A DNA stretch of 64,000 nt from a bacterium (GCA_965242545.1 OZ251456.1:316076-380075); one strand, 5' to 3'. Positions 6,754 to 40,257 are shown, counted from the first letter of the stretch. Notes: generated by a model not told the origin, from the sequence alone. Translations and numbers: made by a program.

Positions 6754-6951
6754 TCAATTACCCCAACGTTCTTTTTCATACTTACTTTGATCTTCTCGGT
6801 TGAGCGGTTGCGATGAACAGTCTGCTCGAACAAAAAAATCTTGCTTGTCCTCAAATTTCGTGAAAACCGGTTTGCCACTTCGGGCTACCTTGATATGGCA
6901 AATTTCACAATCGTCATATATCGGGGTTAATTCTGGCTTGTAGCTCTTCAT
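6754..6951 (-). CDS. Small hypothetical protein (65 aa) in low-GC islet
   Basis: ORF overlapping the 3' end of the GmrSD-like gene. It has a low-GC composition like the islet, contains Cys/His (CEICH), and has no recognisable domain. Confidence 0.2.
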   Translation of the reverse strand: MKSYKPELTPIYDDCEICHIKVARSGKPVFTKFEDKQDFFVRADCSSQPLNREDQSKYEKERWGN

Positions 6952-12632: not shown

Positions 12633-12828
12633 GGCCGGTCGCGCGGGGGCTTCCGGAAAAGACGCCTCGAGGGGCGGCGCCGCGCCCCTCCGCCGCCGTT
12701 CCGGGCGGAACCCGGAAGCGCCTGCCGGAAGATCCCCGCTCCCGTGGGCAGGCCGGGGAAAGCGGGGCTGAAACGCCTGCCGGGCGCGTCGTTCCCGATC
12801 ATTCCCCGTCGAGCGGAGAAGCCGGGCC

Positions 12829-13796: not shown

Positions 13797-13874
13797 GTCC
13801 CCATCGTCTAGCCTGGCCCAGGACACCGGCCTTTCACGCCGGCAACAGGGGTTCGAATCCCCTTGGGGACGCCA
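13797..13874 (+). tRNA. tRNA-Glu (anticodon UUC)
   Basis: Cloverleaf read by hand. Acceptor GTCCCCA/TGGGGAC, D-arm TAGCCTGGCCCAGGA, anticodon stem CCGGC/GCCGG with loop CTTTCAC (UUC), T-arm AGGGGTTCGAATCCCCT, and an encoded 3' CCA. Confidence 0.85.
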
Positions 13875-13914
13875 GGGCGAAGGGGGGAGGCTCGGCGATG
13901 ATTGATAGAAGCGA

Positions 13915-15804: not shown

Positions 15805-15863
15805 AGAACCGACGGGCGCCTGCGCCCTCGCCATGCCGGAAAAGCAAAGGATAGAGAAATCGC

Positions 15864-17627
15864 ATGTTCGGCGATAAGCAAAAGAACATTCTCGCCGTCG
15901 CCCGGAATTACAAGCGGCTGTTGCTTTTATATTTTTTCGTTCTCGTTTCGGCGACGATGTTCGAGAGCATCGGCTTGGGCATGTTGATGCCCATTTTCCA
16001 AACGATACAAGGGATAGAAACAAACCATGTCCTTGAGGCGTACGCCAAATGGGGGCTTGGAATTATCGGCCTGGAGTATTCGTTCGCGAACCTTATCACG
16101 CTGTTCACAATCGCCATGCTGTTCAAATTCGCTTTGGTGGCGATTTCCACGCATCTCGCGCGGGTGCTGAGTTCGAGAATCACGTGCGATATGAGGGAAA
16201 AGGTTTTCAGAAACCTGATGAACCTTCCGCTCTCGTATTTTTATCAAAAAAAGACGGGCGATCTCATCGCCGTCCAATTCACCTCCACGCAGAATGCCGG
16301 CTTTCTTTTTGAACACATGATGCTCATCATCAACAGTATTTTTTTCTGCATCCTGTATCTGGCCATGAATCTGGCGGTCTCCTTTTCGCTCACCGTTCTG
16401 GTGGTAGGCTTGTTTTCCATCTCCTATCTTTTTCTCTTCCCGCGCTTTGAAAAGGGATATTTGAAGGGCGAAGAAGAGTCACGGGGCATGCAGGGCATCA
16501 ATTCCTATCTTCATGACGTCTTTTCCGGCGTCAAGACGGTAAAAGTGTTTGGAAATATCGCGCGCCACGTCGAACACTACAGAAGCCATACGAACGATTA
16601 TCGTCGGGTTTCCGTTGAGATCATGGACAACAAGATTATCGCCTCTCTGTTTTACGAGCCCCTGCTTTTTTTCTTCATGGTTCTTTGTCTGGTTTTCGCC
16701 GTCGTATTTCTGGAAATTCCCTTTGCGATTCTCGCCGTATTCCTGGTCATCTTTCTGCACGTTCTTCCCAAGCTGAAAGTGATCAACCACTACTGGCTCC
16801 TCGCCAATGAATTCGCTCCCCATCTGGAGAGGGTTCAGGAATACGCGGAAAACGGGAACAAGGAACATCCGACGGAAGGGCGCGCTTCCGTCGGCGAACT
16901 GAAAAAGAGCGTGCGATTCGAGAACGTGTCGTTCGCCTATCCGGGCTCCGGGGACGACGCGCTGAACGGGGTAAGCGCATCGGTCGAAAAAGGCGCGACG
17001 ACGGCGCTGGTGGGCTCCTCCGGAAGCGGGAAAACCACTTTCGTCGATCTGTTTCTGCGCCTTCATGATCCGACGCGGGGCGCCATTTACGTTGACGACG
17101 CGGACTTGAGGGACGTTTCCGTGGGCGAGTGGCGAAGCCTCATCGGGGTGGTGGAGCAGGACCCCTATCTTTTCAACGATACGGTCTACAACAACATTCT
17201 TTACGGAAATCCCGAAGCGGATGAAGCGCAGGCGCGGAAGGCGGCGGAAACGGCTTACGCCCATGAATACATCGAGGAATTGCCCGAAGGATACCGGACG
17301 GTCATCGGGAGTCGGGGGATCAAGTTGTCCGGCGGCCAGAAGCAGCGCCTCGCGCTCGCGAGAGCCCTGGTTCGCTCTCCCCGGATACTCGTGCTGGACG
17401 AGGCGACGAGTTCGCTCGACAGCGAATTCGAGCGTCTTATCCAGACCACCTTGCAGGATCTCGCCGGGCGGGTGACCATCCTGGTCGTCGCCCATCGTCT
17501 TTCCACCATCAAGAGCGCGGACAAGATTCTGGTTCTCGAGAATGGGCGAATCGTTCAGGAGGGGAGCCACGCCTCTCTCATGCGGGAGGAAGGGCGGTAT
17601 AAAAAGTTCCTGGCCTTGCAGGCGTAA
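15864..17627 (+). CDS. ABC exporter, fused permease plus ATPase (MsbA/lipid A-type family)
   Basis: N-terminal 6-TM domain, then Walker A GSSGSGKTT, signature LSGGQKQRLALARAL, Walker B ILVLDEATS and an H-loop. Confidence 0.85.
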   Translation: MFGDKQKNILAVARNYKRLLLLYFFVLVSATMFESIGLGMLMPIFQTIQGIETNHVLEAYAKWGLGIIGLEYSFANLITLFTIAMLFKFALVAISTHLARVLSSRITCDMREKVFRNLMNLPLSYFYQKKTGDLIAVQFTSTQNAGFLFEHMMLIINSIFFCILYLAMNLAVSFSLTVLVVGLFSISYLFLFPRFEKGYLKGEEESRGMQGINSYLHDVFSGVKTVKVFGNIARHVEHYRSHTNDYRRVSVEIMDNKIIASLFYEPLLFFFMVLCLVFAVVFLEIPFAILAVFLVIFLHVLPKLKVINHYWLLANEFAPHLERVQEYAENGNKEHPTEGRASVGELKKSVRFENVSFAYPGSGDDALNGVSASVEKGATTALVGSSGSGKTTFVDLFLRLHDPTRGAIYVDDADLRDVSVGEWRSLIGVVEQDPYLFNDTVYNNILYGNPEADEAQARKAAETAYAHEYIEELPEGYRTVIGSRGIKLSGGQKQRLALARALVRSPRILVLDEATSSLDSEFERLIQTTLQDLAGRVTILVVAHRLSTIKSADKILVLENGRIVQEGSHASLMREEGRYKKFLALQA

Positions 17628-17680
17628 GAATCTCAAGAGTTCGCTTGGAATCGTCGGATGAGGCATGAGGGCTTCAAAAA

Positions 17681-18475
17681 ATGAAGGGGAAGCGGAATCG
17701 CGTAGCTGCCTTGTCGTTGGGAAGGAAGGGAAGTGCGGGCTTTCCCGGCAAGAATACCTATCCGGTTCTCGGGAAGCCGCTTTCTTATTATCCCTTGAAG
17801 GCGGCGCTGGATGCGCCCGGCGTCGATGCCGTCTATCTTTCGACGGACGATGAGGAATTGATGGCGCTCGCCCGCGGCATGGGCGCCCGGGTGATCGTCC
17901 GCCCCCCGGAGCTGGCGACAAAAGAGGCTCTTAGCGAAGACGCCTATGCGCACGGGTATCGAGTCATTACGGATGAGCAGAAGAAACTGGGCGGGGAGAT
18001 GGAGTTCTTCGTGCTTCTCTATTGCAACGCGCCCATGATCCTGCCTGAAATGATTGAGGAGGGAATTCGGGTGTTGCGGGAGAACCCGTCCTACGATTCC
18101 GCCGTCACCGTTTCCTGCTATAATATGTGGAGTCCGCTCCGCGCGCGGAAGATTGAAGAGGACGGCCTTTTGCGTCCCTTCGTGCCGTTCGAGGCCTTTG
18201 GCGATCCGGAGACGTTGAGTTGCGACCGGGATTCACAGGGGGATTCGTGGTTTGCGGACGCGGGGGCGGCTATTGTTCGCCCTCGGTGTTTTGAAAACAT
18301 CAATAGCGGTCTATTGCCTTTCAAATGGATGGGACGGAAAATTTACCCGTTGCGGCAATGGGGAGGAGTGGACGTTGACCATGAATGGCAAATGCCGCTC
18401 GTGAAGCATTGGCTGATGGCGCACGGGTTCGACGCCGAAGGGCGCAGGAAGTCTCCGTTTGGTGATGAATCGTGA
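17681..18475 (+). CDS. CMP-sugar cytidylyltransferase (NeuA/KdsB acylneuraminate cytidylyltransferase family)
   Basis: N-terminal ALSLGRKGSAGFPGKN matches the CTP-binding loop of CMP-NeuAc/CMP-Kdo synthetases. 264 aa. Confidence 0.7.
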   Translation: MKGKRNRVAALSLGRKGSAGFPGKNTYPVLGKPLSYYPLKAALDAPGVDAVYLSTDDEELMALARGMGARVIVRPPELATKEALSEDAYAHGYRVITDEQKKLGGEMEFFVLLYCNAPMILPEMIEEGIRVLRENPSYDSAVTVSCYNMWSPLRARKIEEDGLLRPFVPFEAFGDPETLSCDRDSQGDSWFADAGAAIVRPRCFENINSGLLPFKWMGRKIYPLRQWGGVDVDHEWQMPLVKHWLMAHGFDAEGRRKSPFGDES

Positions 18476-18487
18476 GGTTCCGTTTGC

Positions 18488-19213
18488 ATGAATGTTTTGG
18501 TGACGGGCGCGAGTTCGGGCATCGGGCTGTCTATCCTGCGTCTTTTGCTCGACAAGGGAGACAGCATTTTCGCTCATTACAGAAAGAGCAGCCCCGAGTT
18601 GGAAAAGCTCGTCGAAGAATACGCTCCCCAAGGGCGCTTGCGGGTTCATCGGGCCGATTTTGAATATCCGGAGCAGGTGGAATCCCTGATGGACGCCTGC
18701 GACGCGGAGTGGGGGAGACTGGACGCGCTCGTCAACAACGCCGGCGCGGTAATCGAGGAAGCCAGGCTGGAGGAGATAGACCTGAAGCTTTGGAGGCGCG
18801 CCTTCGCGGTCAACGTGGAGGCCCCCTTTTTGCTGTCCCGGTGGGCGTTCCTGAAGATGGGGGAAGGGGGAGGGAAAATACTCAATATCGGCTCGATTTC
18901 CGCGAAATACGTTGGTGGGGAAACGACTTTTCACTACGGCGTCTCCAAGGCGACGGTGGACGCGCTGACCCTGGGTTTCGCCCGCCGGGGCGCGGACAAG
19001 GGCATTTGCGTCAACGCCGTCCGGCCGGGAGTGACGGATACGGACGCGCATCAGAAATACACGCCCGGCAAGGACATGACGGAAAGAATCTCCATGGTTC
19101 CGATGAAGAGAATGGCGCGGCCTGATGAAATCGCCTCACTGTCCGTTTATTTGCTCTCGAAGGAAGCGGACTACATTACGGGGCAAATCGTATCCATCGC
19201 GGGGGGAGATTGA
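18488..19213 (+). CDS. SDR-family short-chain dehydrogenase
   Basis: TGASSGIG Rossmann motif, NNAG, and a YxxxK-type catalytic region. 241 aa. Confidence 0.8.
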   Translation: MNVLVTGASSGIGLSILRLLLDKGDSIFAHYRKSSPELEKLVEEYAPQGRLRVHRADFEYPEQVESLMDACDAEWGRLDALVNNAGAVIEEARLEEIDLKLWRRAFAVNVEAPFLLSRWAFLKMGEGGGKILNIGSISAKYVGGETTFHYGVSKATVDALTLGFARRGADKGICVNAVRPGVTDTDAHQKYTPGKDMTERISMVPMKRMARPDEIASLSVYLLSKEADYITGQIVSIAGGD

Positions 19214-19216
19214 TTC

Positions 19217-20179
19217 TTGGGCGGGAAATGGAAAGTCGTTGTTTTCGGCGGTTCGGGCTTCATCGGCAGCCACTTGGCCGATGCGCTGTCTGATGAAGGA
19301 CATGAGGTTCTTCTGTTCGACTTGAAGCCCTCCGCGTATTTGCGGTCGGATCAAAGGATGTATGTCGGCGATATTCTGAACACCGAGCAAGTGCGTGAAG
19401 CGGTGAAGGGCCATGACGCCGTCTATAATTTCGCGGGCATCGCGGATCTTGATGACGCGAAAACAAAAGCCGCTCAAACTGTCGCCCAGAACGTCCTGGG
19501 AACTGTGAACATACTTGACGCGGCGCGCAGTGCGGGCGTCAAACGCTATATGCACGCCAGTTCCATATACGCTTACAGCGATCGAGGCGGTTTCTACCGG
19601 TGCAGCAAGCAGGCGGCGGAACTCTACATAGAAGAATACCAGAAGCAGTATGGGCTGAATTATGTGATTTTTCGCTTCGGAACCATATTCGGCACTCGGG
19701 CCGATGAAAGAAACAGCGTCCATCGCTATCTTCGGCAGGCGCTTTCCGAGAAGCGCATCGAAAGCTTCGTCGCCGGCGATGAGATTCGTGAATACGTCAA
19801 TGTAAAGGACGCGGCTCGCCTTTGCGTTCAGGTGCTTGCTGAGAATCCTGCCAGCCAGCACCTGATAATCACCGGCCCCTATCCCATGCGCACGAGAGAG
19901 TTTCTTGAAATGATAAATGAAATCGTGGGGGGAGGCGTCGAATTGAAGTTCGACGAGAATGGCCAGTCGGGCCACTATCGGATGACGCCCTACACGTTCG
20001 AGCCTAAAATCGGCCGGAAGCTCGCCATCAACGAGTATATGGACATGGGAGGAGGATTGCTGGAGTGCCTGCGCGAGATTTATGAGGATATGCAGGCGAC
20101 TTCACCCGGGAAAACGGCAGCCTTCGCGGACCCGCCTCCCCCGTCTTGTTCCCGTCCGCAGGCGGGGGGATCAGAATGA
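19217..20179 (+). CDS. NAD-dependent epimerase/dehydratase family protein
   Basis: GGSGFIGSH Rossmann motif. 320 aa, extended SDR. TTG start as in the track. Confidence 0.75.
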   Translation: MGGKWKVVVFGGSGFIGSHLADALSDEGHEVLLFDLKPSAYLRSDQRMYVGDILNTEQVREAVKGHDAVYNFAGIADLDDAKTKAAQTVAQNVLGTVNILDAARSAGVKRYMHASSIYAYSDRGGFYRCSKQAAELYIEEYQKQYGLNYVIFRFGTIFGTRADERNSVHRYLRQALSEKRIESFVAGDEIREYVNVKDAARLCVQVLAENPASQHLIITGPYPMRTREFLEMINEIVGGGVELKFDENGQSGHYRMTPYTFEPKIGRKLAINEYMDMGGGLLECLREIYEDMQATSPGKTAAFADPPPPSCSRPQAGGSE

Positions 20180-21000
20180 TAAGCGTCGTCATAACGGCCT
20201 ACAACGCCGAGGAATATGTTGCGGACGCCGTGAAAAGCATTCTGGCGCAGACGGAGGTCGATCTGGAATGCGTCATCGTCGATGACGGCTCGACGGACGA
20301 TACCGTCCGCGTATTGACGGGCTTCGGCGATCCTCGAATTCGTCTCATCGAAGCGGGACGAATCGGGCGCGTGAGAGCGCTCAACCTCGGCGTCCGCGAG
20401 AGCCGGGGGGAGTATGTCGCCATCCAGGACGCGGATGACTTGTCCCATCCCAAAAGACTGGAAATTCAAAGGCTGGCGATGGAGCAATCGCCGGATTATT
20501 GCGCCGTCGGTTCGCCCCCGTTCGCCTTTTACGCCAACGGGAGGCCCGATTGGCCCTCATTCGGGCCGGATGAGAAAAATCCTTCGTTAGCGGATATCGG
20601 AAGAAAACTCATGCTTTCCAATGCCGTCAACCACACGTCGCTGTTCGCCAGAAGCGAGGCGATGAAAAAAATTCAGGGCTACGATGAGAAATTTCGCATG
20701 ATTCATGATTTCGATTTGCTTGTCCGAATGTATGAAAATGGAATGAAGGTCGGGTTTTTGAAAGTTCCCGTGGCGGCGAAAAGAATTCATGTGGAGCAGT
20801 TTTTCGAGCGAAATACGAGGCTCCGGGACGTGTTTGACGGCATCCTTGTGCAAAGCAGGGCGATTCGCGCCTGTGGAGGCGGTCTCCCGTATCGCGTCCT
20901 GCTGCCGTTCTGGTTTTCGTATCGCTTGCTGCCGCCCAAAGCGCGCATGTGGATCAGGGCCAAGGGAGGCTATTTTTCCTGCGCCGACGAGCTGAAATAA
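20176..21000 (+). CDS. Family 2 glycosyltransferase
   Basis: ISVVITAYNAEEYV...VIVDDGSTDDT...QDADD is the GT2 DxD architecture. Start at ATG 20176. Confidence 0.8.
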   Translation: MISVVITAYNAEEYVADAVKSILAQTEVDLECVIVDDGSTDDTVRVLTGFGDPRIRLIEAGRIGRVRALNLGVRESRGEYVAIQDADDLSHPKRLEIQRLAMEQSPDYCAVGSPPFAFYANGRPDWPSFGPDEKNPSLADIGRKLMLSNAVNHTSLFARSEAMKKIQGYDEKFRMIHDFDLLVRMYENGMKVGFLKVPVAAKRIHVEQFFERNTRLRDVFDGILVQSRAIRACGGGLPYRVLLPFWFSYRLLPPKARMWIRAKGGYFSCADELK

Positions 21001-21157
21001 TCCACCCGTCTTTTGGAACTTTCTCGAAACCGCCGGCGCTCCGCCCTCTTGAAGATTTTTGCGTGGATTCGCCCGCTCGGTCAGTAAAATTCCACATGTT
21101 TCAAGGTTTGCGGTTTCATGGGCGGAGCCTCGAAAGACAAAAGGTTGTGGTTGAAGC

Positions 21158-23142
21158 ATGTTGTTGTTCGTTTTTGATGAGAGTTTCTCGGATGAAGAAG
21201 CGCCGGACGGGTTCCGGGGCGGGCGCGATTCGATCTCCCTGTTCGCCTTGACGGGAAACTGGAGGCTGGCGAGGCGTCTCGAGCGAGCGCTTCTGAAGCG
21301 CGGCCTGAAGCAGGTCGCCGCGCTGAATTCGGCCAGGCTCGTCGAGCGGGAAATCGAAGCCATTTGCCGCGAACTCCCAAAATGGTCCGCCGAGCGGGGG
21401 GACTCGCGCATCCGCGATGTCTCCGTTCGGCGTTTTTTCATGACGAGCGAGGACGGGATGAGCGGCTTCTGGCTGGGGCCCATTTCGGAGAAAAATCCCC
21501 TGAAAACGGATACGTTCCTCCGGCTGGCCCAGGCGCTTGCGGTTCAAGGAGAACTGCGAACCGGAAAATACGACGGGGTGGCCGTAGCCGTAAAGAACGG
21601 CAACCTCCACAAGTCCATCAGGCGCATGGCGGATGCTTTCAGCGTCCCGTTTCATGTTGTGGAAAAGCCCGGGACGCTCGCTGTCCAAAATATGAGGTCG
21701 CTCCTGCCGGGCATGTTGTCGCTCGCGCTCGCGGGCTGGCTGCAGGCCTGCTGGAAGGCCATGCTCGCCAAGGCGGTGATGGGCTTTTCCCGCCGCAGAG
21801 AGATTTCCACGCCCCCCCCGTGTTCGTCAGCTATTTTCCATATCTGAACGAGGATGCGGAAGGCGCGTTTCGCAACAAGTATTTCGAGCCGGTTCAGAAT
21901 ATCTGCCCGAAGCGAAAAGAGCGCATTTTCTGGCTTTTGATGTTCACGCATATCCAGGGCGCCACTTTTCTGGAATCCTTGAAAATCGCGAAGAAATTCA
22001 AGAAAAACGGAGAACGGCTCGCGTTCTTCGATGAGTTTTTCGGCTTCCGGGAAGCTGTCGGAGCGTTTTATTTATGGACAAGGCAGTTGGGAAGATATTT
22101 CTTTCTTGCGAGAAACTTCTCGGAAGAACGGATGTGCGGAGATCTGTTCCCCGTTGAATGCTATCCCCTCGTCAGAGATTTATGGCGCCGGTCGTTTTGC
22201 GGCGTCGAGGCCGTTCGCGGGTTGATCCAGTATAAAGCGTTCAGGAGGTTTTTCAGGGACTCGGGCGGCGCCTCTCAATGCGTGTATGCGTGCGAGATGC
22301 AGGCGTGGGAAAAGGCGCTGAATAAAGCGATAGAACGCGAAAGGCCGGAACTGGAGTCTGTCGGCTTCATTCACACGGTCATCTCCCGGCATTATGTGTT
22401 TTACGCTCACCATGAATCGGAGATAGAATCATCCCGTCTTGCCGATGGCTTGCCGCTCCCCGGGAAAATCGCCGCCAATGGCGCGGCGGCGCACGCTCTC
22501 CTCTCCGAGTGGGGCTATCCGGGCCTTTGCAAGGTGGAGGCGATACGCCAGTTGCCGCTGGCTGCGAGGATGAACGATCCGCGGCCCTTGGAGAAGGGGA
22601 GCAAGCCGACCTTGCTGGTTGCGGGAACCAGCGTCCAGGAAGAAACGAAGTCCCTGTTGCTGTTGCTTTCGGGGGCTTGTCCGCTCGCTGGCGAATGGGA
22701 CGTTTGGCTGAAGGGACATCCGGCAATGCCCATGGATTCATTGCTGAAGGGCTTGGGGATTCATCCGGCGGCGCGCCGTTGGGAGATCAAGGAAGGGGAT
22801 ATCAATACGCATCTTGAAAAGGCCGATGTCGTCCTCGTGCCCACGAGCGCCGTATCGGTGGACGCTCTTGCTTTCGGATGCGAGGTTTTCACGCTCGTTT
22901 TCAGTTCCGGATTCACCATGAACGTGTTGTCGGGATTTGAAGACTATTACCATTCCGTGAGCACGCCCGATGAATTGAGGGAAAAACTGGAGAACTACCT
23001 GAAAAACGGCTCTCGAAAGGGACTGGATGAGAAAAGGGATTTCGTGCGAAGCTACTGGAACCTTGACGCTCAGCTCCCGGGATGGCGAAGGCTGTTGAAC
23101 GTGGAGGCGAGCGATAAGGACAGCCTTGGCCCAGGTGGTTGA
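21158..23142 (+). pseudogene. KpsC/KpsS-like capsule polysaccharide biosynthesis protein (Capsule_synth-like, putative beta-Kdo-type transferase), broken by a frameshift at a C8 homopolymer
   Basis: ORF 21158..21847 (frame 2) and the C-terminal 430 aa of ORF 21364..23142 (frame 1) join at the C8 run 21812-21819; one extra C would fuse them into an ORF of about 660 aa. The C-terminal part has a GT-B-like block with a KGHP motif (LLVAGTSVQEE...WLKGHPAMP...VLVPTSAVSVDALAFGCEV), as in the KpsC/KpsS family. The first 150 aa of the frame-1 ORF are Arg-rich out-of-frame junk. Confidence 0.45.
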
Positions 23143-23417
23143 AAGTCCCCCGGGATATTTGATACTTGCGAGAACGTTCTGGATGTTGTGGCGATGAATA
23201 GAGGCATCGACCGGGGAGTGAAATGGTGAAACGGGCCTTGGAAAACGAAGACTTCGATCGGGCGGCTTGGAAAGGGGGAAACGCGCTTTCTGTTTTGGGG
23301 CTTCGCTGTCTTTGGCGGCGCTCCCGCCTCTTCGATCAGGCGCTTCAGGACGCCTATAGGGAATCTCTGGAAGCCCGCTTCAAGTGCGACACCCTTTTCG
23401 CCGTCATCACCGTTTGA

Positions 23418-24443
23418 ATGAGCATGACGCTTAAGGCGGGCATCGTCGGGTTCGGCGGCATGGGGCAGAGGCATTATCGCGCCTACGAGGGAACGCCCTG
23501 CGAAGTCGCCGCCATTTGTGAGTGGCGGCCCGAGCGCGTCGGCGAGGTTTTGCCGGATTTCCCCCCCGCCCGCGTTTATTCGGATTATCGGGAGCTGCTT
23601 GCGAATGAAGCGCTCGACGTCCTGAGCGTGGTCTCGAACGGGCCCACCCACGCGGAAATCGTCATCGCCGCCGCCGACGCCGGAATCCCCCGCATCGTCT
23701 GCGAGAAGCCGCTGGCGACGAGCCTCCGGGACGCCGACGGGGTGCTGGAGGCCGTGAGCCGGACGAGCGCCCGGGTGACGGTCAACCACATACGCCGCTG
23801 GAGCCCGGCGTATCATCGACTGAAGGACGCCGTCCGGGAAGGCGTCATAGGCGATCTTCGCCATGCGTATTTCCACATCGGCAGCGTGGGTCTCGGCAAT
23901 TACGTCATTCATATTTTCGATTTGATGCGGTTTCTTTCCGACTCCGAACCCGCCTGGGTGATGGGCGCGCTGGATCGCACGGGCACCCCCAATCCGAGAG
24001 GCCCGCAATATGAGGATCCAGCCGGATTCGGCGTCGTCGTATTCGAGAACGGCATGAGGAGCTACGTGGAGTCGTGCGAGGATACGGGCGTTCAGTATCT
24101 GATCGTTCTCGCGGGCGCATACGGCAGAATCGTCATCGACGAACTCAACGCCTCCTGGCGCGTGTACGCTCGCGCCGGGGAAGCCAGATCCGTTCCTTTG
24201 ACCCGATACGGGACGCCCATGGAGGAGAGGTCGTTCGACGGCGGAGATTTCGACATCGTTGAACTCACGCGGAACGGCATTCTCGAGCTTCTGGGGTCTG
24301 AGGAGTTGAGTTGCTCCCTGGAAGATGGAATGAAGTCGCTGGAAATGGTGATCGCCTTCCATGAATCCGAAGCGCTGGGCAACGGGCGTCTTGATTTTCC
24401 GTTGAGCGCGAAGGCTCGGGAGCGCGTTGTTCATATCGCCTGA
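23418..24443 (+). CDS. Gfo/Idh/MocA family oxidoreductase
   Basis: N-terminal Rossmann GIVGFGGMG, the EKP motif (CEKPLA) and a C-terminal alpha/beta domain. Confidence 0.8.
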   Translation: MSMTLKAGIVGFGGMGQRHYRAYEGTPCEVAAICEWRPERVGEVLPDFPPARVYSDYRELLANEALDVLSVVSNGPTHAEIVIAAADAGIPRIVCEKPLATSLRDADGVLEAVSRTSARVTVNHIRRWSPAYHRLKDAVREGVIGDLRHAYFHIGSVGLGNYVIHIFDLMRFLSDSEPAWVMGALDRTGTPNPRGPQYEDPAGFGVVVFENGMRSYVESCEDTGVQYLIVLAGAYGRIVIDELNASWRVYARAGEARSVPLTRYGTPMEERSFDGGDFDIVELTRNGILELLGSEELSCSLEDGMKSLEMVIAFHESEALGNGRLDFPLSAKARERVVHIA

Positions 24444-24524
24444 GCGCTTCACGGGCGGGATGAACGTCTCCTCGAAAAGAGGCTTTTCCCGATATACCGA
24501 TATGCCTGATTTTGAGCGGAAGGC

Positions 24525-25514
24525 GTGAGGATGAGCGAAGCTCTTGTCAGTCTTGGTTCTTTCGGCTCATTCAGCCGCAAGCCCCTGATGATTCTTGAAG
24601 AAGCGGGCATCGGATACTCCTTTCAGCCGCACCCGCGCCGCCCGAGCGAGAGCGAGATGTGCGGCCTTGTGGGCGAGACCCGTTATATCATCGCGGGCGT
24701 GGAGCCGCTTACGGCGAAGGTGATGGAAAGCGCCCCGAACCTGAGGCTCATCTCGCGCGTCGGCGTCGGGCTGGACAGCGTGGATCTGCTGGCGGCCAGG
24801 GAGCGGGGCATCCAGGTTGCGTATACGCCCGAGGCGCCCTCCGCGGCCGTGGCCGATTTGACCATCGCTCTGATGGCGTCCATGCTTCGGGGCATCCGCA
24901 AGGCGGACGCGGCTCTGCGCGAGGGAAGATGGGAGAGGCGGGTCGGCCGAGGGATTGGCGATGTGACGGCTGGAATTATCGGGGTGAATCGCATCGGCAA
25001 GCGCGTCGCCCGGCTCCTCAGGGCGTTCGGCGCGGACATTTTGGGCCACGACGTCAAGCCGGACGTGGATTTCGGCGCCGAAACCGGAATCGCCTGGGTG
25101 GAGAAAAAAGAAATTTTCCGGCGGGCGGACGTGATTACCCTCCACCTGCCCATGAGTCCGCGGACGGAGAATTACGTCGGGCGGGCGGAATTGTCGTTGA
25201 TGAAGCCGGACGCCGTCTTGGTGAATACCGCGCGCGGGGGACTGATTGACGAAAAAGCCCTGGCCGAGGCGCTGGAGGCGGGAAGAATCGGCGGAGCGGC
25301 GCTGGACGTGTTCGCCGATGAGCCCTACGCCGGCCCTCTGGCGAATCTCGACAATGTTCTGCTGACGAGTCATATCGGTTCTTTTACGAAAGAATCCCGG
25401 GTGCGGATGGAGTCGGAGGCGGCGGAAAGCGTGGTTTTTTTCCATCGGGGGCTCCCCGTCTCCCGATTGGTGCCGGAGGCGGAGTATGAATTGCAGGGGA
25501 TCGCGCCTGAATAG
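24525..25514 (+). CDS. D-isomer-specific 2-hydroxyacid dehydrogenase (PGDH/GyaR-like)
   Basis: NAD-binding GIIGVNRIGKRVA, catalytic-domain layout, and HIGSFT near the C-terminus. Confidence 0.8.
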   Translation: MRMSEALVSLGSFGSFSRKPLMILEEAGIGYSFQPHPRRPSESEMCGLVGETRYIIAGVEPLTAKVMESAPNLRLISRVGVGLDSVDLLAARERGIQVAYTPEAPSAAVADLTIALMASMLRGIRKADAALREGRWERRVGRGIGDVTAGIIGVNRIGKRVARLLRAFGADILGHDVKPDVDFGAETGIAWVEKKEIFRRADVITLHLPMSPRTENYVGRAELSLMKPDAVLVNTARGGLIDEKALAEALEAGRIGGAALDVFADEPYAGPLANLDNVLLTSHIGSFTKESRVRMESEAAESVVFFHRGLPVSRLVPEAEYELQGIAPE

Positions 25515-25573
25515 GGCTCGCCGGGCGCTGGCGACGCGCTTTGGAAGCGGGTTATGCTTTGACGCGCGGGTGA

Positions 25574-27631
25574 ATGTGGATTGCTGAAAGGTTGAAAAAC
25601 CGGAGACACTCGGGAATGGAAGCCGAGGATCGAATATCTTTTCAGGAAATCGTGGAGGCGCTGAAGCGGCGCCGGCGTTTGCTTGTCGCGCTTCCCGCGA
25701 TATTCACGGCGGCCATCGTCGCGCTCTCCCTTTTGCAGGCGAGAGAATACAAAGCGACAGCCACGCTGCGCGTCGGCTTGCTGCGATTACAGGATGTCAC
25801 GTTGGAGCGCAGCCTATCGGGTCGGCGGATACAGACGGCCGTCAAACTGATCCCGAGTCTGGTGACCGCCAGGGAAGTGGTGCGAAAGTTCAAGTTGGAC
25901 GTCGATCCTTACAATGCGCGGACCGATGAGTTTTGGGACAATATCGGCTTGGTGAAAATCGTCAAGGGGACGGAGCTGATCGAAATATCGGCGTTCACGA
26001 TGAATCCCCGGCTGTCGAAGGACATAGCGAATTATATTGCCAATCAGACGATCAGCAGGCAGATGAAGCATGCGCAGTCTGACGCCTTGCGAGTACAAGA
26101 GGGGGTCAGAAAAAGGCTTGACGGCGCGAAGCGGCGCCTGGATAGCGCGGAGGACGCGCTGTTGAAATTCCACCAGGAATCGAGGCTGGACGAGTTGCGG
26201 CAGGATATCCGGACTTTGCTGGCCCAGCGGGAGTACTTGGCTTCCATGCGCTTCGCGAGCCTCCTCAACGCGCAAGATACCGATCGGGACGCTCTCTCCA
26301 AAGAAAAGGAAGAAGTGCTGAAATTGCTCCGGGGCGACGCGGAATTCCCGGAATTGAAGATGGCGATGGATAAGAACGACAGCTTGCTGGAGCGCCATCG
26401 CGCGCTTTCAAGGAAGATGCTGGAAATGAAGAGTCGGTTCTCCGCCATGCTCTCGGCGACGAATGGTGATTCAAGAGGCGATGCCCCGTTGAGCGCGCAA
26501 AGAAAATCAATAGAAAACGCGGGGGCGGGAGATGTCGTTCGGGCCGCGTCCGGGCTTGAAAAAATTCGGAGCGAGAAAAGATCGCTGGAAGCTGAAAGAA
26601 AAAATCTTTCGACCTCTCTGCCCGTCCTGACAGTCGAGATTCAGGTTTCCATGAGCAGATTGAAATCGCTCGAGACGGCGATGAGCGATTTCAGGAATGC
26701 GAGCCGGGCCGGATCATTTTCCGCGGATGGGCGCACCCGGTCGGACGCGCCGCGGAAAAACGGAGGCGCGAGTGATGAAAGGGCGTCTGGCGCGCCGTTC
26801 GACGCCGTATCCGTGAAAATCGTGGATGAGGAATCTCGTCTGGCGGGGCTGAAAGAAAAAAAGAAGCGGCATCAGGAGAGAATCGCCAGGATTGACGCGG
26901 AGCTGCCGGAGGTGTCCGGGAAATTGCGGGAGCTGGAGGCGAGGAGCCTGCTTCTGAAAATTTCCCGAACGTCGGACGAGATAAAGAAAATCGAATCTGA
27001 AATTCTCGCGAACCGCAGGGAAATCGCGGAGCGGCGGGGGCGGAGAAACAGTTTGCTTGCGAGGCTGGGCGCATTGGAGGAAGTGTCGTCGGGCGTTGGA
27101 AAAATCGATATTTCTTTTTTCAACGCCTCGCGCTCCGCCCGCCCGCTTGATTCCGAGGGGCCGGAGGATGGCGGTTCCCCGGAAAGGGAGCATTTCTCGC
27201 CGAATATATTGTTGAACAGGCTGCGGGTTTTGGACAGGGATATCCTGACGGCGGAGCGTTTGAGGCATCGGGAGAAATTGTTTGACGCCCGGTTGAAGGA
27301 TGTGGATAGAGAACTGGGCAAAAAGATCACGGAGAAAGCGGCTTCGGTTTCCCTTCGCGAACAAGTGGAGCTCGATCATTCGCTGGCGAAACGAACTTAC
27401 AGCGACATCTCCAAGGACTATAACCAGGCGGCGGCGGCCGTGTTGTCCAGCAGCACCGATTTGAGGATTGTCAGCCCTGCGAGATTGCCCGAGATGCCGG
27501 TTTCCGGACGGCATTTGGCGATCATGGCGTCATTGAGTTTTGTCTTCGGCTTGTTGTTCGCCATGTTCACGGCGCTGTTTCTCGAGTTCCGCCAAGCGAT
27601 TCTCGCGCGAAAAGAACCGGATGGCGCGTAG
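25574..27631 (+). CDS. Polysaccharide chain-length determinant / co-polymerase (Wzz/GumC-like, no kinase domain)
   Basis: N-terminal TM, long coiled-coil periplasmic region and a C-terminal TM (LAIMASLSFVFGLLFAMFTALFL). The start could be 25616 (MEAEDRISF). Confidence 0.7.
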   Translation: MWIAERLKNRRHSGMEAEDRISFQEIVEALKRRRRLLVALPAIFTAAIVALSLLQAREYKATATLRVGLLRLQDVTLERSLSGRRIQTAVKLIPSLVTAREVVRKFKLDVDPYNARTDEFWDNIGLVKIVKGTELIEISAFTMNPRLSKDIANYIANQTISRQMKHAQSDALRVQEGVRKRLDGAKRRLDSAEDALLKFHQESRLDELRQDIRTLLAQREYLASMRFASLLNAQDTDRDALSKEKEEVLKLLRGDAEFPELKMAMDKNDSLLERHRALSRKMLEMKSRFSAMLSATNGDSRGDAPLSAQRKSIENAGAGDVVRAASGLEKIRSEKRSLEAERKNLSTSLPVLTVEIQVSMSRLKSLETAMSDFRNASRAGSFSADGRTRSDAPRKNGGASDERASGAPFDAVSVKIVDEESRLAGLKEKKKRHQERIARIDAELPEVSGKLRELEARSLLLKISRTSDEIKKIESEILANRREIAERRGRRNSLLARLGALEEVSSGVGKIDISFFNASRSARPLDSEGPEDGGSPEREHFSPNILLNRLRVLDRDILTAERLRHREKLFDARLKDVDRELGKKITEKAASVSLREQVELDHSLAKRTYSDISKDYNQAAAAVLSSSTDLRIVSPARLPEMPVSGRHLAIMASLSFVFGLLFAMFTALFLEFRQAILARKEPDGA

Positions 27632-27760
27632 TTCCGCGGATTCGGCTCGCTCCTCGTCAAGGCTGAACGGAGGAAGGCTTCAAGCGTTCAGCCCTTCGCC
27701 CGCGTCGCGCTCCAGGGGCGCTTTCACAAGCCGCCGCGTCCTCGGGTAGCAACCCTTTCC

Positions 27761-29248
27761 ATGCCTGAAGAACGAACGTCAAACAACGAACGGACCGCAG
27801 GGGAGAAAGCGTTTTCTCCTTTCCGGCTTACCAATGCGGTCATTTATCTGCACGTGGTTCATTTCCTCATTCCATGGCGAAGCGTCCCTTACTTTCCGAG
27901 TCAGCTGACTCCTTACAGGGTCTTGATGGTCCTTGCCGCCATGCTGTGCGCGGCCTGGGTGATCGAACTCCTGCTGTTCGGGGCGAGGAAGCCGAAGCTG
28001 GCGTTCGGCGTCGCCGTGTTCTGGTTCTGGGTGATATTCTGGGGAGGGGTTCTGAAGGGCTACATGGACGACGACCCCATCAAGACGTATGTACCCCTAT
28101 ACAAGCTCCTGGGCTGGACCGTTCCATACGTGGACGGGATGCTCGTATGGTATTTGATTCGGAACAACGGGTGGGGCATGGCGGAGTTCGAGCGCGCGCT
28201 GAAGTGCGTCTTCTGGGTCTCCCTGGCCATAAGCATCGAGAACGTCCTGGTCTATTATCTGGGCGTTCCCGTTTCTTATTCGATGTTTCACGGGTCCGGG
28301 GTTCGTGTTTTCATGAGCATGTTCGTCCAGACCCACGAAACGGTCTCCAGACTCGGGTTGATATTGACGGGCGTCGGCTTTTATTTCTTTTTGAGAGAGA
28401 AGAGGCATTTTTATTTTTTCGCGTCGCTGTCCGGCGTCCTCATGGTTTTTTCCACCGGGAGCCGAGCGGCGATTCTGGCCCTGTTCGCGGGCGTATTGCT
28501 CGCCATCGTCTTTTTTCTGAAATTCAGAAAACGCGCGGGCGCGAGCGGGAAGCTCGGCTCTCTTTACGCCTTTTGTCTCGCGCCTTTGGCGTTCGCCCTG
28601 TTCGTTTCCGTCGGACTGACGATGGGAGCGGCGTCGAGAGAGCACTTCATCGATCTGACGCAAAGCGTCGTGCTCCGAGCCTATCAATACGCGCGCGCGG
28701 TGGATGTATTTCTGGAGCGGCCTCTTTTGGGGGGCGGGCCTTGGCTGGGCTTCATGTATCTGTATTCGAGGGATACGCCGCCCGTGTTCTCGGAGTATGT
28801 TTTCGGCGATCTCACGCATGACAACGTTGGCGAGCTCACCGGATGGACCGGCTGGGCGCATTACGACTGGCTTCAGGAAAACCCGATGGCGGAGAAATCG
28901 CGGTTGAACTCCCGGGAATTCCAGGAAAGCCACAACATACACCATCTGCATAGTCTGCCGCTCCAGGTTCTCGTTGACCTGGGGCTGTTGGGGCTGGTTT
29001 TGCTGATGATCATGCTCGCCGCCGGCGCGATATATTTTTTCAGGATCATGCTCCTGCGGCGACATGAGAACTCGTTTTCGCGCGCGATGCCCTTCGCCGT
29101 CATTTTCTCCACCGTGGTCGCCGTTTTCATAGGCGTTCTCAGCGTCGCCCTGTTTTATCCGTTCTGGCTTTTCGCCATCCTGCTGTGTTTCACGCGCTGC
29201 CTGTATCGGGAGGCATTGACGGCGTCCGGAGCTTCGGCTTCCGCATGA
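27761..29248 (+). CDS. O-antigen ligase/Wzy-like membrane protein
   Basis: More than 10 TM helices. O-antigen-ligase-domain motif STGSRAAILALFAGVLL and a large periplasmic loop with HNIHHLHSLPLQVLVDLGLLG. Confidence 0.65.
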   Translation: MPEERTSNNERTAGEKAFSPFRLTNAVIYLHVVHFLIPWRSVPYFPSQLTPYRVLMVLAAMLCAAWVIELLLFGARKPKLAFGVAVFWFWVIFWGGVLKGYMDDDPIKTYVPLYKLLGWTVPYVDGMLVWYLIRNNGWGMAEFERALKCVFWVSLAISIENVLVYYLGVPVSYSMFHGSGVRVFMSMFVQTHETVSRLGLILTGVGFYFFLREKRHFYFFASLSGVLMVFSTGSRAAILALFAGVLLAIVFFLKFRKRAGASGKLGSLYAFCLAPLAFALFVSVGLTMGAASREHFIDLTQSVVLRAYQYARAVDVFLERPLLGGGPWLGFMYLYSRDTPPVFSEYVFGDLTHDNVGELTGWTGWAHYDWLQENPMAEKSRLNSREFQESHNIHHLHSLPLQVLVDLGLLGLVLLMIMLAAGAIYFFRIMLLRRHENSFSRAMPFAVIFSTVVAVFIGVLSVALFYPFWLFAILLCFTRCLYREALTASGASASA

Positions 29249-29379
29249 AGACCCGGCGCCCATGCCGTCCGGTTCTGACGAGAGGCGCCGGCCGTCGCCC
29301 TGAACAGGGAGCGACGGCGCCTTGACCGGAGCGCGCGCCCTTGGATCTTTCCGTCCGCGCGCCGAGGGAGAGATCGCAA

Positions 29380-30960: not shown

Positions 30961-30983
30961 GTTTCATCCACGGAGACCGCCGC

Positions 30984-32432
30984 ATGAGCGACGAGAGAGA
31001 AAGAGGGGGAGCGTGGCCGGGGGGGGGGGCGACTCCGGTGATCACGCGAAGCGCGGGCATCCCGGTAAAAGGGCGCCTCGGGAAACTGGCGTCATCCGCG
31101 CAGGATCGCTCCTTCATACTGCTCGATGTTCTCTCGCTCATCCTCGCGGAGCGGCTGACGCGCTTTTTGTGGGGCGGTCTCGACGGCCTGCTGTTCTTCC
31201 GTCCTGACGTCGTCTGGCTGTCCGCGCTGAGTTTTTGCCTTTTCTGCTTCTGCGACCTCTACGCGTACATTCGCTACGTTCGCGTCTTCCTCTCCTCCTG
31301 GCTGGTGTTCAAGGCTTTGTTCATCAGTTTCATCCTGCGCGAGGCGCTCGACGGCGTTTTCTTCGGGTTTCAGGAGGGCGTCTGGTTCTGGCTTTCGCTC
31401 TACGCCGCGACCTTCGCGGTTGTTATGCTGGCGCGCCTGATTTTCAAGAAAATCGTCCTGAAGGGCGCGCTGGAATGCAAAATCGTGGTTTTGAAGACCG
31501 GGACCGTCAAATCCGACGTCTCCTCCATGTTGTCGGAGGAGAACGACCGGAACCTGGAGATCGCCGGGGAGATTGCGGCGGACGACGACCCCGCCCGGAT
31601 TGCCGGGCGGCTTGGGGAGGCCCTGGATTCCAGCCCCGACGTTCGGTTCGTGGTGTGCGAGCAGGGCTATCTCGATCAGTCGGGCGCCGCCGCGATCCTC
31701 GGCGCGTGCGCGGCGCGTCATGTGTCATGCGTCGCTTGGCCGGGTTTCGTCTCGTTGATGGAGGGACGGATTCCGTTGGAGAGCGTTTCCGAAGCCAGAA
31801 ACTTCTTCGACTCGGATTCCCTATATCGGGTGCCGAGCCGGAGGCAGCGTTTTTGCAAACGGGCGCTCGATCTGGCGTTCAGCATCGCGGCCCTGGTCTT
31901 GTTCGCCCCTTTTGGCCTCCTCATCGCCGTTCTGAGCAAGCTCTCGAGCGAGGGGCCTGTCTTTTATTCCCAGACCCGCGTCACCCAGTTCGGCAGATTG
32001 TTCACCGTCCATAAATTCCGGACGATGAACGTGGATGCGGAACAAGCGGGGAAAGCGGAGTGGAGCAAGGCGAATGATCAGAGAGTCTATCCGTTCGGGC
32101 GCCTGCTCCGCCGCTACCATCTCGATGAGTTCCCGCAGTTCTGGAACGTCGTCAAGGGGGAGATGAGCATTGTCGGCCCCAGACCGGAGAGGCCCGAATT
32201 TTTGAAAGTTTTGCGGGATCGTTATCCGGAATTTCAATACCGCGAACTCGCTCCGGCGGGCATCACGGGCTGGGCGCAAATTCAGCAAGGATACGTCAAC
32301 AGGATTGAAGATTCTAAAACAAAGCTGGAATATGATTTATACTACATTCTGAACTACTCTTTTTATATGGACGTTCAGGTGATATTCCTCACCGCGCTCA
32401 CGTTCTTGCGCCTGCGCGGCCACGGCGTCTAG
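30984..32432 (+). CDS. Polyprenyl-phosphate glycosylphosphotransferase (bacterial sugar transferase, WbaP/EpsB-like priming enzyme)
   Basis: C-terminal catalytic domain KRALDLAFSIAALVLFAPFGLLIAVLSKLSSEGPVFYSQTRVTQFGRLFTVHKFRTM...DEFPQFWNVVKGEMSIVGPRPERPEF. N-terminal TM helices. A G11 tract at 31009-31019 lies within or just before the start (alternative GTG at 31030). Confidence 0.85.
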   Translation: MSDERERGGAWPGGGATPVITRSAGIPVKGRLGKLASSAQDRSFILLDVLSLILAERLTRFLWGGLDGLLFFRPDVVWLSALSFCLFCFCDLYAYIRYVRVFLSSWLVFKALFISFILREALDGVFFGFQEGVWFWLSLYAATFAVVMLARLIFKKIVLKGALECKIVVLKTGTVKSDVSSMLSEENDRNLEIAGEIAADDDPARIAGRLGEALDSSPDVRFVVCEQGYLDQSGAAAILGACAARHVSCVAWPGFVSLMEGRIPLESVSEARNFFDSDSLYRVPSRRQRFCKRALDLAFSIAALVLFAPFGLLIAVLSKLSSEGPVFYSQTRVTQFGRLFTVHKFRTMNVDAEQAGKAEWSKANDQRVYPFGRLLRRYHLDEFPQFWNVVKGEMSIVGPRPERPEFLKVLRDRYPEFQYRELAPAGITGWAQIQQGYVNRIEDSKTKLEYDLYYILNYSFYMDVQVIFLTALTFLRLRGHGV

Positions 32433-39140: not shown

Positions 39141-39301
39141 GCGGACGCTTCCTCTTTTGACCGGGGTGAACGATAATTCCCGAATGGCGAGGATACCCTC
39201 GGAGGCTCGCTCCGGCAAGCGCCGCGCCGACGGCTTCCGCATGTTCCCGCGGGTCCGCGCGCTAAACCCGCGTCAACCTGCTTCAGTGGGGAAAACCCGT
39301 T

Positions 39302-40117: not shown

Positions 40118-40257
40118 GCCCGCACGCGCTTTCCGGATTTCGCCTTGATGCAATCCGGGCGCGCCTGTGGCATACTCCCCGCATTCCATACAGGGCGGCG
40201 GCGCGCCATTTCGGCTTCGGGAGGTTCGTCTTTTCATTTCTTGGAGGAGGAAACGAG

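What the first reader, a model, noticed from the sequence alone, without database searches (positions are those of the whole stretch)
21812..21819. C8 homopolymer splits the KpsC/KpsS-like gene into two frames
The 229-aa ORF (frame 2) and the downstream 430 aa (frame 1) meet exactly at CCCCCCCC. Nine Cs would give one ORF of about 660 aa. This is either a homopolymer sequencing error, a pseudogene, or a slipped-strand phase-variation switch for a surface-glycan transferase. The last reading gains weight from the second homopolymer tract, G11, at the start of the EPS priming transferase gene at 31009..31019.
Basis: seen in the sequence. Interest (0 to 1): 0.5.

Follow-up and report, generated by a model that had tools for sequence, protein, structure and literature searches.

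The report
One-base frameshift in surface-sugar transferase gene
A run of eight Cs leaves a conserved surface-polysaccharide transferase gene one base short, most likely a recent slippage mutation or a sequencing miscount rather than an evolved on/off switch, although a nearby poly-G run at the locus's priming transferase gene does vary in length among relatives.

Summary
C8 lies at 21812-21819, exactly where a 229-aa ORF (frame 2) meets a 440-codon frame-1 continuation. One extra C gives a 661-aa protein.

That protein is colinear end to end with NCBIfam TIGR04326 and with 22 intact homologues of 652-675 aa, the closest 88% identical. It is not KpsC/KpsS: it has no Pfam hit, and its predicted fold is generic GT-B with an extra N-terminal domain. 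The shift falls in the disordered linker between the two.

The C run is specific to this lineage. The sister lineage reads ACGGCCCCCCGCGTG and all relatives are intact. The gene shows no extra decay: amino-acid changes are 25 on the window branch against 26 on the sister branch, and its dN/dS of 0.44 matches its neighbours. It is the only mid-gene frameshift detected in the window. Four other G/C runs of 8 or more lie inside uninterrupted ORFs.

So the event is very recent, reversible or an artefact. I favour a real, recent slippage allele (0.5) over a consensus error (0.35). An evolved phase switch (0.1) is weakly supported.

It is hypervariable among relatives (G9 to G13, both in and out of frame), which is the more interesting feature.

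The parts
21158..23142 (+). Whole disrupted gene. It belongs to the TIGR04326-like surface carbohydrate biosynthesis family and would encode 661 aa with one more C.
   Evidence: NCBIfam TIGR04326, E 6.8e-62, residues 61-648 against profile 19-601/602 in a single stretch. There are 22 intact homologues of 652-675 aa. The alignment is colinear across the junction.
21158..21847 (+). Upstream ORF of 229 aa. It covers the N-terminal Rossmann-like domain and a long helix, then 8 out-of-frame codons and TGA.
   Evidence: The source annotation calls it as a separate protein, P0024. In the AF2 model the N domain is 1-208.
21812..21819 (+). C8 homopolymer, the site of the one-base shortfall.
   Evidence: Relatives read ACGGCCCCCCGCGTG, GGCCTCCCGC, GGCTTCTCGC or GGCACCGCAT at this site. 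It maps to the low-confidence linker at residues 215-221.
21820..23142 (+). Downstream part: 440 codons plus stop, encoding the GT-B catalytic module. The source annotation calls it from the GTG at 21820.
   Evidence: P0004 is 440 aa and 100% identical. The GT-B fold covers residues 222-650.
31019..31029 (+). G11 homopolymer at codons 12-16 of the 482-aa Bac_transf ORF. It is hypervariable among relatives.
   Evidence: Relatives carry G9, G9, G10, G10, G11, G11, G12, G13 and G13 with near-identical flanks.
30984..32432 (+). Priming (Bac_transf) transferase ORF, 482 aa. A GGAG lies 8 nt upstream of the ATG at 30984.
   Evidence: Pfam PF02397, E 4.7e-60. The SD-like GGAG/GAGG is conserved before the upstream ATG in all tract-bearing loci.
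31038..31040 (+). Conserved alternative start, (A/G)TG of the (A/G)TGAT(C/T) motif, 5-8 nt 3' of the G run. It corresponds to the start of the tract-less homologue in L002.
   Evidence: In two out-of-frame alleles (L025, L026/L027) the short upstream ORF stops at a TGA that overlaps this start.

Best explanation
The gene at 21158-23142 encodes a two-module enzyme of about 660 aa, conserved in its family. It has an N-terminal Rossmann-like domain, a flexible linker and a GT-B transferase module (TIGR04326-like). It sits in the part of a surface-polysaccharide locus that also holds an ABC transporter and a cytidylyltransferase.

In this lineage, G-to-C substitutions in a Pro/Ala/Arg-coding linker merged an ancestral C6-G-C into a long C run. 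One base was then lost, most simply by slipped-strand mispairing (C9 to C8). Translation from 21158 now ends at 21847, after the N domain. The catalytic module is no longer translated as part of the protein.

The allele is a very recent loss of function. Because it sits in a slippage-prone run it could in principle revert, but it is not a conserved, evolved switch.

Shown: the run, the frame break, its exact position, the intact colinear orthologues, the lineage-specific origin of the run, and the lack of further decay. Inferred: that the shortfall is real in the DNA rather than in the consensus, that slippage caused it, and the enzyme's role.
For: - Position of the break and colinearity with the family.
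- Tract origin: the sister lineage has ACGGCCCCCCGCGTG in three independent assemblies (L001, L022, L023), and more distant relatives are interrupted.
- The window contains no other frameshift that I could detect. In about 20 kb aligned at 93% identity, the target is the only mid-gene indel that is not a multiple of three. A codon-phase test over 317 runs of 5 or more flagged no other mid-gene change.
- Two other C8 runs (56913, 58318) lie inside contiguous Pfam domain matches and G9 (3335) lies in an unbroken 652-aa ORF. G11 has the same length as in L022, which comes from a separate assembly of a different sample, and as inferred for P0026. Homopolymer calling in this assembly therefore looks good.
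- Recent event: branch-assigned amino-acid changes are 25 (window) against 26 (sister). dN/dS is 0.44, against 0.17-0.49 for the intact locus genes.
- Slippage is active in this clade: the poly-G at the priming transferase differs by one base (11 against 10) between L022 and L025, whose flanks are identical over about 100 nt, and ranges from G9 to G13 overall.
Against: - No reads are available, so a consensus miscount (true C9) cannot be excluded. The sequencing platform of the source is unknown to me.
- C runs of 8-9 are a known weak spot at read level for nanopore R10.4 (PMC9262707).
- Reaching an in-frame C9 from the sister sequence needs two G-to-C substitutions. The shorter routes (one substitution plus one deletion) require a deletion that is not in a homopolymer.
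- The complete absence of secondary decay is equally what an artefact would show.
Confidence: 0.5

Rival explanations
1. Homopolymer consensus error. The true genome has C9 (T-P-P-P-V) and an intact 661-aa gene, and the assembler or polisher dropped one C.
For: - The gene is otherwise perfect: both halves are open, there is no extra decay, and dN/dS equals that of its neighbours.
- All 22 homologues are intact.
- The break is exactly at a C8 run, the class of site where long-read consensus errors concentrate (PMC9262707; PMC13087279).
- Related genomes are single-contig 2.9-3.0 Mb MAGs, which suggests long-read assemblies.
Against: - It is the only frameshift detected in 64 kb.
- The two other C8 runs and G9 lie in uninterrupted ORFs, and G11 is in frame at the length seen in L022 and inferred for P0026.
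- C9 requires two specific G-to-C changes relative to the sister lineage.
Confidence: 0.35
2. Evolved contingency locus. The C run is a selected slipped-strand switch that toggles this transferase ON and OFF in the population, and the assembly caught the OFF phase.
For: - The gene is a surface-glycan transferase, the classic target class.
- A one-base change in a run of 8 or more G/C toggles the frame.
- The same locus carries a hypervariable poly-G at the 5' end of the priming transferase gene, with in-frame and out-of-frame alleles.
- The relative L002 (51% GC) has C13, G10 and G9 in 22 kb, against roughly 0.15 runs of 9 or more expected by my own i.i.d. estimate, which was not run as a shuffle.
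- Presence of a tract in only some strains does not exclude phase variation, as with gonococcal pgtA (PMC2193922).
Against: - No relative has the tract, so it is not conserved.
- It lies mid-gene in a linker rather than near the 5' end.
- C8/G8 runs are at chance frequency in the window. The polysaccharide locus holds 2 of the window's 5 G/C runs of 8 or more, so they are not enriched there.
- A G9 run in the sister lineage's epimerase gene has the same length in three assemblies and is simply interrupted (GGGGGGAGG) in the window. Such runs therefore come and go by substitution.
Confidence: 0.1
3. The break is compensated. Either -1 ribosomal frameshifting or transcriptional slippage on the C run restores a full-length protein, or the two halves work as separate polypeptides, with the second initiating at the GTG at 21820.
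For: - A -1 shift on C CCC CCC CCG would restore the frame (read directly from the sequence).
- The break falls exactly in the low-confidence linker between the N domain and the GT-B module.
- A GTG follows the run immediately, and the source annotation used it as a start.
Against: - No orthologue uses a frameshift or a split. All 22 are fused, including the distant L024 (677 aa).
- There is no significant RNA structure 3' of the run (z = -1.16).
- There is no good Shine-Dalgarno sequence at the right spacing before 21820.
Confidence: 0.03

Closest known systems
NCBIfam TIGR04326 (O_ant_LIC13510), 'surface carbohydrate biosynthesis protein' family
   Same: The match is end to end and colinear (profile 19-601 of 602, E 6.8e-62). 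The length is the same, about 660 aa. The context is the same kind of surface-carbohydrate locus. JGI names homologues P0013, P0015, P0018 and P0022 with this family.
   Different: The score of 209.7 bits is below the curated cut-off of 250. The family has no characterised function, and no paper in the library mentions it. The window copy is frameshifted.
Poly-G/C phase-variable glycosyltransferase genes of Neisseria (lgtA/C/D, pgtA) and comparable contingency genes
   Same: A G/C homopolymer inside a glycan transferase ORF changes the reading frame when its length changes by one base. As with pgtA, the tract is present in some lineages and absent in others (PMC2193922; PMC2191774).
   Different: Here, switching has not been observed. 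The tract is only 8 long, lies mid-gene and is unique to one genome. In the known cases, length polymorphism among isolates and reversible switching were demonstrated.
Reversible homopolymer frameshifts in high-GC genomes (Mycobacterium tuberculosis complex)
   Same: G/C homopolymeric tracts in ordinary genes of a GC-rich genome give recurrent, reversible loss-of-function indels without being dedicated switches (bioRxiv 10.1101/2022.06.10.495637, abstract seen).
   Different: That evidence rests on thousands of isolates showing recurrent indels. Here there is one consensus sequence.
KpsC/KpsS capsule Kdo transferases (Pfam PF05159 Capsule_synth)
   Same: Both act in surface-polysaccharide biosynthesis.
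   Different: There is no sequence match at E<=1. The top structural neighbours are UDP-GlcNAc 2-epimerases, TagF, LpxB, WlaC, WaaA and GT4 enzymes, not KpsC or KpsS.

Membership tests
TIGR04326 surface carbohydrate biosynthesis protein | Whole-protein score at or above the curated NCBIfam cut-off (250 bits) | tested here: not met
   209.7 bits, E 6.8e-62. I therefore call it TIGR04326-like, not a certified member.
TIGR04326 surface carbohydrate biosynthesis protein | Full-length colinear architecture of about 600-670 aa | tested here: met
   A single stretch covers residues 61-648 against profile 19-601/602 once one C is added. The protein aligns with 22 homologues of 652-675 aa.
KpsC/KpsS (PF05159 Capsule_synth) | Match to the Capsule_synth domain | tested here: not met
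   No Pfam family matched at E<=1.
KpsC/KpsS (PF05159 Capsule_synth) | Closest structural neighbours are KpsC or KpsS | tested here: not met
GT-B fold glycosyl/phospho-sugar transferase superfamily | Two Rossmann-like domains with structural similarity to solved GT-B enzymes | tested here: met
Simple-sequence-repeat contingency (phase-variable) gene | A repeat tract whose length change toggles the reading frame or expression | tested here: met
   C8 gives a truncated product and C9 gives a 661-aa ORF.
Simple-sequence-repeat contingency (phase-variable) gene | Tract-length polymorphism among strains or within a population at this site | not testable with these tools
   No reads are available. 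No second assembly of the same species was found.
Simple-sequence-repeat contingency (phase-variable) gene | Tract present or maintained in related lineages | tested here: not met
   The sequence is interrupted in L001, L022, L023, L003, L004, L005, L026 and L002.
Simple-sequence-repeat contingency (phase-variable) gene | Reversible high-frequency switching | not testable with these tools
   This needs culture, a reporter assay or deep reads.
Simple-sequence-repeat contingency gene (the G tract at 31019-31029, considered separately) | Tract conserved in position, with length polymorphism that gives in-frame and out-of-frame alleles | tested here: met
   G9 to G13 across 10 alleles. In frame: window, L022, L028, L005, and P0026, P0031 and P0032 (inferred from protein N-termini). 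Out of frame: L025, L003 and L026/L027.
Programmed -1 ribosomal frameshift | Frameshift requirement conserved in orthologues, plus a 3' stimulatory structure | tested here: not met
   Orthologues are in a single frame. The fold z-score is -1.16.

The most novel reading that the evidence does not exclude
This uncultured clade has nearest named relatives labelled Nitrospinota and Tectomicrobia. It may use G/C homopolymers as contingency switches in its surface-polysaccharide locus.

The conserved poly-G (G9-G13) lies at the 5' end of the priming transferase ORF and could give three translational states. In frame, it gives a long isoform. In one out-of-frame state, a short upstream ORF stops at a TGA overlapping the conserved (A/G)TGAT(C/T) start, which would allow coupled re-initiation. 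In the other, a long overlapping out-of-frame ORF would give occlusion.

On this reading the C8 in the TIGR04326-like gene is a newly born second switch caught in the OFF phase.
Probability: 0.2. Interest if true: 0.55.

Novelty: new member of a known kind. Interest (0 to 1): 0.3.

Why it matters
For annotation, the two calls (229 aa and 440 aa) should be joined and flagged as one frameshifted TIGR04326-like gene, not described as KpsC/KpsS.

If the shortfall is real, this strain lacks one transferase step of its surface polysaccharide. Its closest relatives keep that step, so this would be a strain-level difference in surface structure.

The wider point is that homopolymer slippage shapes this locus in an uncultured lineage. 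The poly-G at the priming transferase gene is the better candidate for true phase variation, and it could be tested directly with existing metagenomic reads.

Tried and rejected
- **Exact-protein look-ups** for the window's own products (P0004, the 229-aa ORF, the SDR and the GFO_IDH protein) found no contig, so no sister-strain DNA could be obtained.
- **JGI metagenome scans.** A pattern spanning the tract with a variable gap found nothing. A protein-guided scan found only a 26%-identical relative.
- **Genome scan.** It gave relatives at 75% identity or less, not the source genome.
- **Literature.** No paper mentions TIGR04326 or the sample and run accessions. My guess that the 'PANK22-1' scaffolds are sponge metagenomes could not be verified, so I do not rely on it.
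- **PDB sequence search.** Only spurious weak hits.
- **Programmed frameshifting.** Rejected for lack of structure and lack of conservation.
- **Functional split gene.** Rejected as unlikely because every homologue is fused, including L024.
- **Promoter and terminator scans.** Nothing informative near either tract.
- **Relaxed selection on the window branch.** Tested and not found.
- **Enrichment of long G/C runs in the window.** Tested and not found.
- **Parsimony on the mutational path** (one substitution plus one non-homopolymer deletion, against two substitutions plus slippage) does not discriminate between error and real mutation.

Full report
**Observation.** The window reads ...tttccacgCCCCCCCCgtgttcg..., with the eight Cs at 21812-21819. 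ORF 21158..21847 (229 aa) is in frame 2. Frame 1 is open from 21364 to the stop at 23142. Reading ACG CCC CCC CCC GTG with a ninth C joins them into a 661-aa protein. The downstream part is 440 codons, not 430. C8/G8 runs are not unusual in this 62% GC window: 9 matches against 7.55 +/- 3.7 in dinucleotide shuffles. G11 is mildly unusual: 1 against 0.25 expected.

**What the gene is.** The joined protein has no Pfam match at E<=1, so it does not carry the KpsC/KpsS Capsule_synth domain. It matches NCBIfam TIGR04326 ('surface carbohydrate biosynthesis protein', O_ant_LIC13510) in one stretch. The match covers residues 61-648 against profile positions 19-601 of 602, with E 6.8e-62 and 209.7 bits, below the curated 250-bit cut-off.

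A search of the large protein collection gave 22 homologues, all 652-675 aa. The closest are 88%, 76%, 75% and 63% identical. The search also returned the source genome's own 440-aa call, P0004, which begins at the GTG right after the run. The 229-aa piece, P0024, is also called separately in that 3,087,465-bp contig.

The multiple alignment is colinear across the junction. Frame 2 matches relatives up to ...MGFSRR-EIST, and frame 1 picks up at VFVSYFPYL, an invariant block. The shift therefore lies within 21809-21822, where the C run is the only repeat.

**Context.** The gene lies in a polysaccharide locus that follows a tRNA-Glu gene at 13797-13874. In order, the locus encodes:
- a LIC12162-like protein, an ABC exporter, a cytidylyltransferase, an SDR, an epimerase and a GT2;
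- the target gene;
- a GFO/IDH oxidoreductase, a 2-hydroxyacid dehydrogenase, a Wzz-like protein and two Wzy_C proteins;
- the Bac_transf priming transferase, a GT4, an asparagine synthase, a methyltransferase and a GT2.

Codon-position GC contrast is lower from 13.9 to 32.4 kb than in the flanks. Nearest named relatives of a flanking housekeeping-type gene are labelled 'bacterium', Nitrospinota and Candidatus Tectomicrobia. This is only a weak guide to taxonomy.

**The tract in relatives.** Three independent assemblies of the sister lineage (L001, L022, L023; about 93% DNA identity) read ACGGCCCCCCGCGTG (T-A-P-R-V), where the window reads ACG-CCCCCCCCGTG. More distant relatives have GGCCTCCCGC (L004, L005, L026), GGCTTCTCGC (L003) or GGCACCGCAT (L002). 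All of these genes are intact. The long C run is therefore new to the window's lineage. It arose by G-to-C substitution in a poorly conserved linker. The window differs from the sister sequence either by one substitution plus a one-base deletion outside a homopolymer, or by two substitutions (giving C9) plus the loss of one C. Parsimony does not choose between these paths.

**Is the assembly error-prone?** Aligning about 20 kb of the window to L001, L022 and L023 shows that the target is the only mid-gene indel that is not a multiple of three. The other indels are intergenic, in frame, compensating pairs, or at gene ends. A codon-phase test across all 317 homopolymers of 5 or more flagged 20 sites. 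I judged the other 19 to lie at or near gene boundaries or to have weak margins.

The two other C8 runs lie inside contiguous Pfam domain matches, a FAS1-type dehydratase domain and the N domain of an acyl-CoA dehydrogenase. G9 lies in an unbroken 652-aa ORF. G11 is in frame and has the same length as in L022, a separate assembly from a different sample, and as inferred for P0026. Homopolymer calling in this window therefore looks good. That lowers the probability of a miscount at this one site but does not remove it. C runs of 8-9 are noted as weaker at read level for nanopore R10.4 (PMC9262707). Truncated genes in long-read MAGs are generally treated as errors, with some genuine pseudogenes among them (PMC13087279). 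I do not know which platform produced this assembly.

**Is the gene decaying?** Between the window and L001, dN/dS is 0.44 (0.72 for the N part, 0.37 for the C part). That is within the range of the intact genes of the same locus, 0.17-0.49. With four outgroups, amino-acid changes assign 25 to the window branch and 26 to the sister branch. There is no second lesion. The frameshift is therefore very recent, reversible or not real.

**The G tract.** At 31019-31029, G11 lies at codons 12-16 of the 482-aa Bac_transf ORF. Relatives carry a G run at the same place with near-identical flanks but different lengths:
- G9 in L028 and in L026/L027
- G10 in L025 and, inferred from the protein N-terminus, in P0032
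- G11 in the window, L022 and P0026 (the last inferred from the protein)
- G12 in L003
- G13 in L005 and, inferred, in P0031

L022 and L025 are identical over 59 nt upstream and 40 nt downstream and differ only in 11 against 10 Gs. The upstream ATG is preceded by a conserved GGAG or GAGG 5-8 nt away. Alleles in frame with that ATG are the window, L022, L028, L005, P0026, P0031 and P0032. Out-of-frame alleles are L025, L003 and L026/L027. P0033 is called only from a downstream ATG, and its tract was not seen.

A conserved (A/G)TGAT(C/T) lies 5-8 nt after the run. It is in frame with the enzyme body and is the start of the tract-less L002 homologue. In L025 and L026/L027 the short upstream ORF stops at a TGA overlapping that start. 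This is the anatomy of a 5' coding-repeat phase switch, possibly with a re-initiation state. That mechanistic reading is inference.

It shows that slippage is active and tolerated in this locus. It does not show that the C8 is a switch. A G9 run in the sister lineage's epimerase gene has the same length in three assemblies and is simply GGGGGGAGG in the window, so such runs also come and go by substitution.

**Other mechanisms.** A -1 ribosomal shift on the C run would restore the frame. However, there is no significant downstream structure (z = -1.16), and no orthologue needs a shift. Independent initiation at the GTG at 21820 lacks a well-placed Shine-Dalgarno sequence.

**Verdict.** The gene label and the secondary coordinates are not. 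I rank the explanations as follows.
1. A genuine, very recent one-base loss in a newly formed C run, giving an OFF or incipient-pseudogene allele of a TIGR04326-like GT-B transferase (0.5).
2. A consensus miscount of a true C9 (0.35).
3. An evolved phase-variable switch (0.1).
4. Recoding or a functional split (0.03).

This is an ordinary kind of event in an uncharacterised family, so interest is low to moderate. The hypervariable poly-G at the priming transferase gene is the feature worth following up. Read-level length counts at both tracts would settle the matter.

Noticed in passing
window 31019-31029; L022 13592-13602; L025 988-997; L028 1033-1041; L003 16571-16582; L005 19547-19559; L026 9596-9604; L027 1264-1272: The poly-G run at the 5' end of the Bac_transf priming transferase ORF is conserved in position but varies from G9 to G13 among close relatives with near-identical flanks. 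Both in-frame and out-of-frame alleles exist. It is absent from the 57%-identical L002 homologue.
   Followed up: yes
window 31038-31043 and equivalents (L025 1006, L026 9610, L003 16588, L005 19565): A conserved (A/G)TGAT(C/T) lies 5-8 nt 3' of the poly-G and is in frame with the enzyme body. In the out-of-frame alleles L025 and L026/L027, the short upstream ORF ends at a TGA overlapping this start. That is a stop-start overlap suggestive of coupled re-initiation. In L003 the other out-of-frame state reads on without an early stop.
   Followed up: partly
L002 862-871, 5967-5974, 12127-12139, 14895-14903: The related 2.9-Mb genome has a locus of 51% GC with G10, C8, C13 and G9 in 22 kb, far more long G/C runs than composition predicts. 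The G10 lies 6 nt upstream of the ATGATC start of a cytidylyltransferase/NeuB fusion gene. The C13 lies about 125 nt into the epimerase gene just downstream of the TIGR04326 homologue.
   Followed up: partly
window 19926-19934 vs L001 8765-8773, L022 913-921, L023 3754-3762: The sister lineage has a G9 run inside the epimerase gene, with the same length in three assemblies. The window has GGGGGGAGG at that site. G/C runs in this locus are made and broken by point substitution.
   Followed up: yes
window 23113-23327 vs L001 11957-13768 and L022 4105-5916: The window lacks a block of about 1.8 kb (an NAD-dependent epimerase and a methyltransferase) that lies immediately downstream of the TIGR04326 homologue in the sister lineage. 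L003 and L026 also lack it but keep an intact TIGR04326 gene.
   Followed up: partly
window 13797-13874 and 13909-32432: A tRNA-Glu(UUC) gene lies directly upstream of the polysaccharide locus. The locus has lower third-position GC (0.64-0.76) than the flanking genes (0.78-0.91), which suggests a variable or horizontally exchanged region.
   Followed up: no
window 38273-40237 (-) and 39302-40117 (+): The 654-aa minus-strand ORF is probably an over-extended antisense reading. Relatives have a 288-aa Lactamase_B gene on that strand and a 271-aa Lactamase_B/Apyc1-like gene on the opposite strand, matching window 39302-40117. The window also has a GT2 gene (36526-37806) where relatives have a FrsA-like hydrolase.
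   Followed up: partly
window 6914-8317 (-): A 467-aa ORF with a GmrSD_N restriction-endonuclease domain has weak codon-position GC contrast compared with its neighbours. It may be an acquired defence gene.
   Followed up: no
window 12648-12773: The intergenic region between the M20 peptidase and EamA genes carries 13-nt and 42-nt insertions relative to L001, around a repeated CCGGAAG motif.
   Followed up: no
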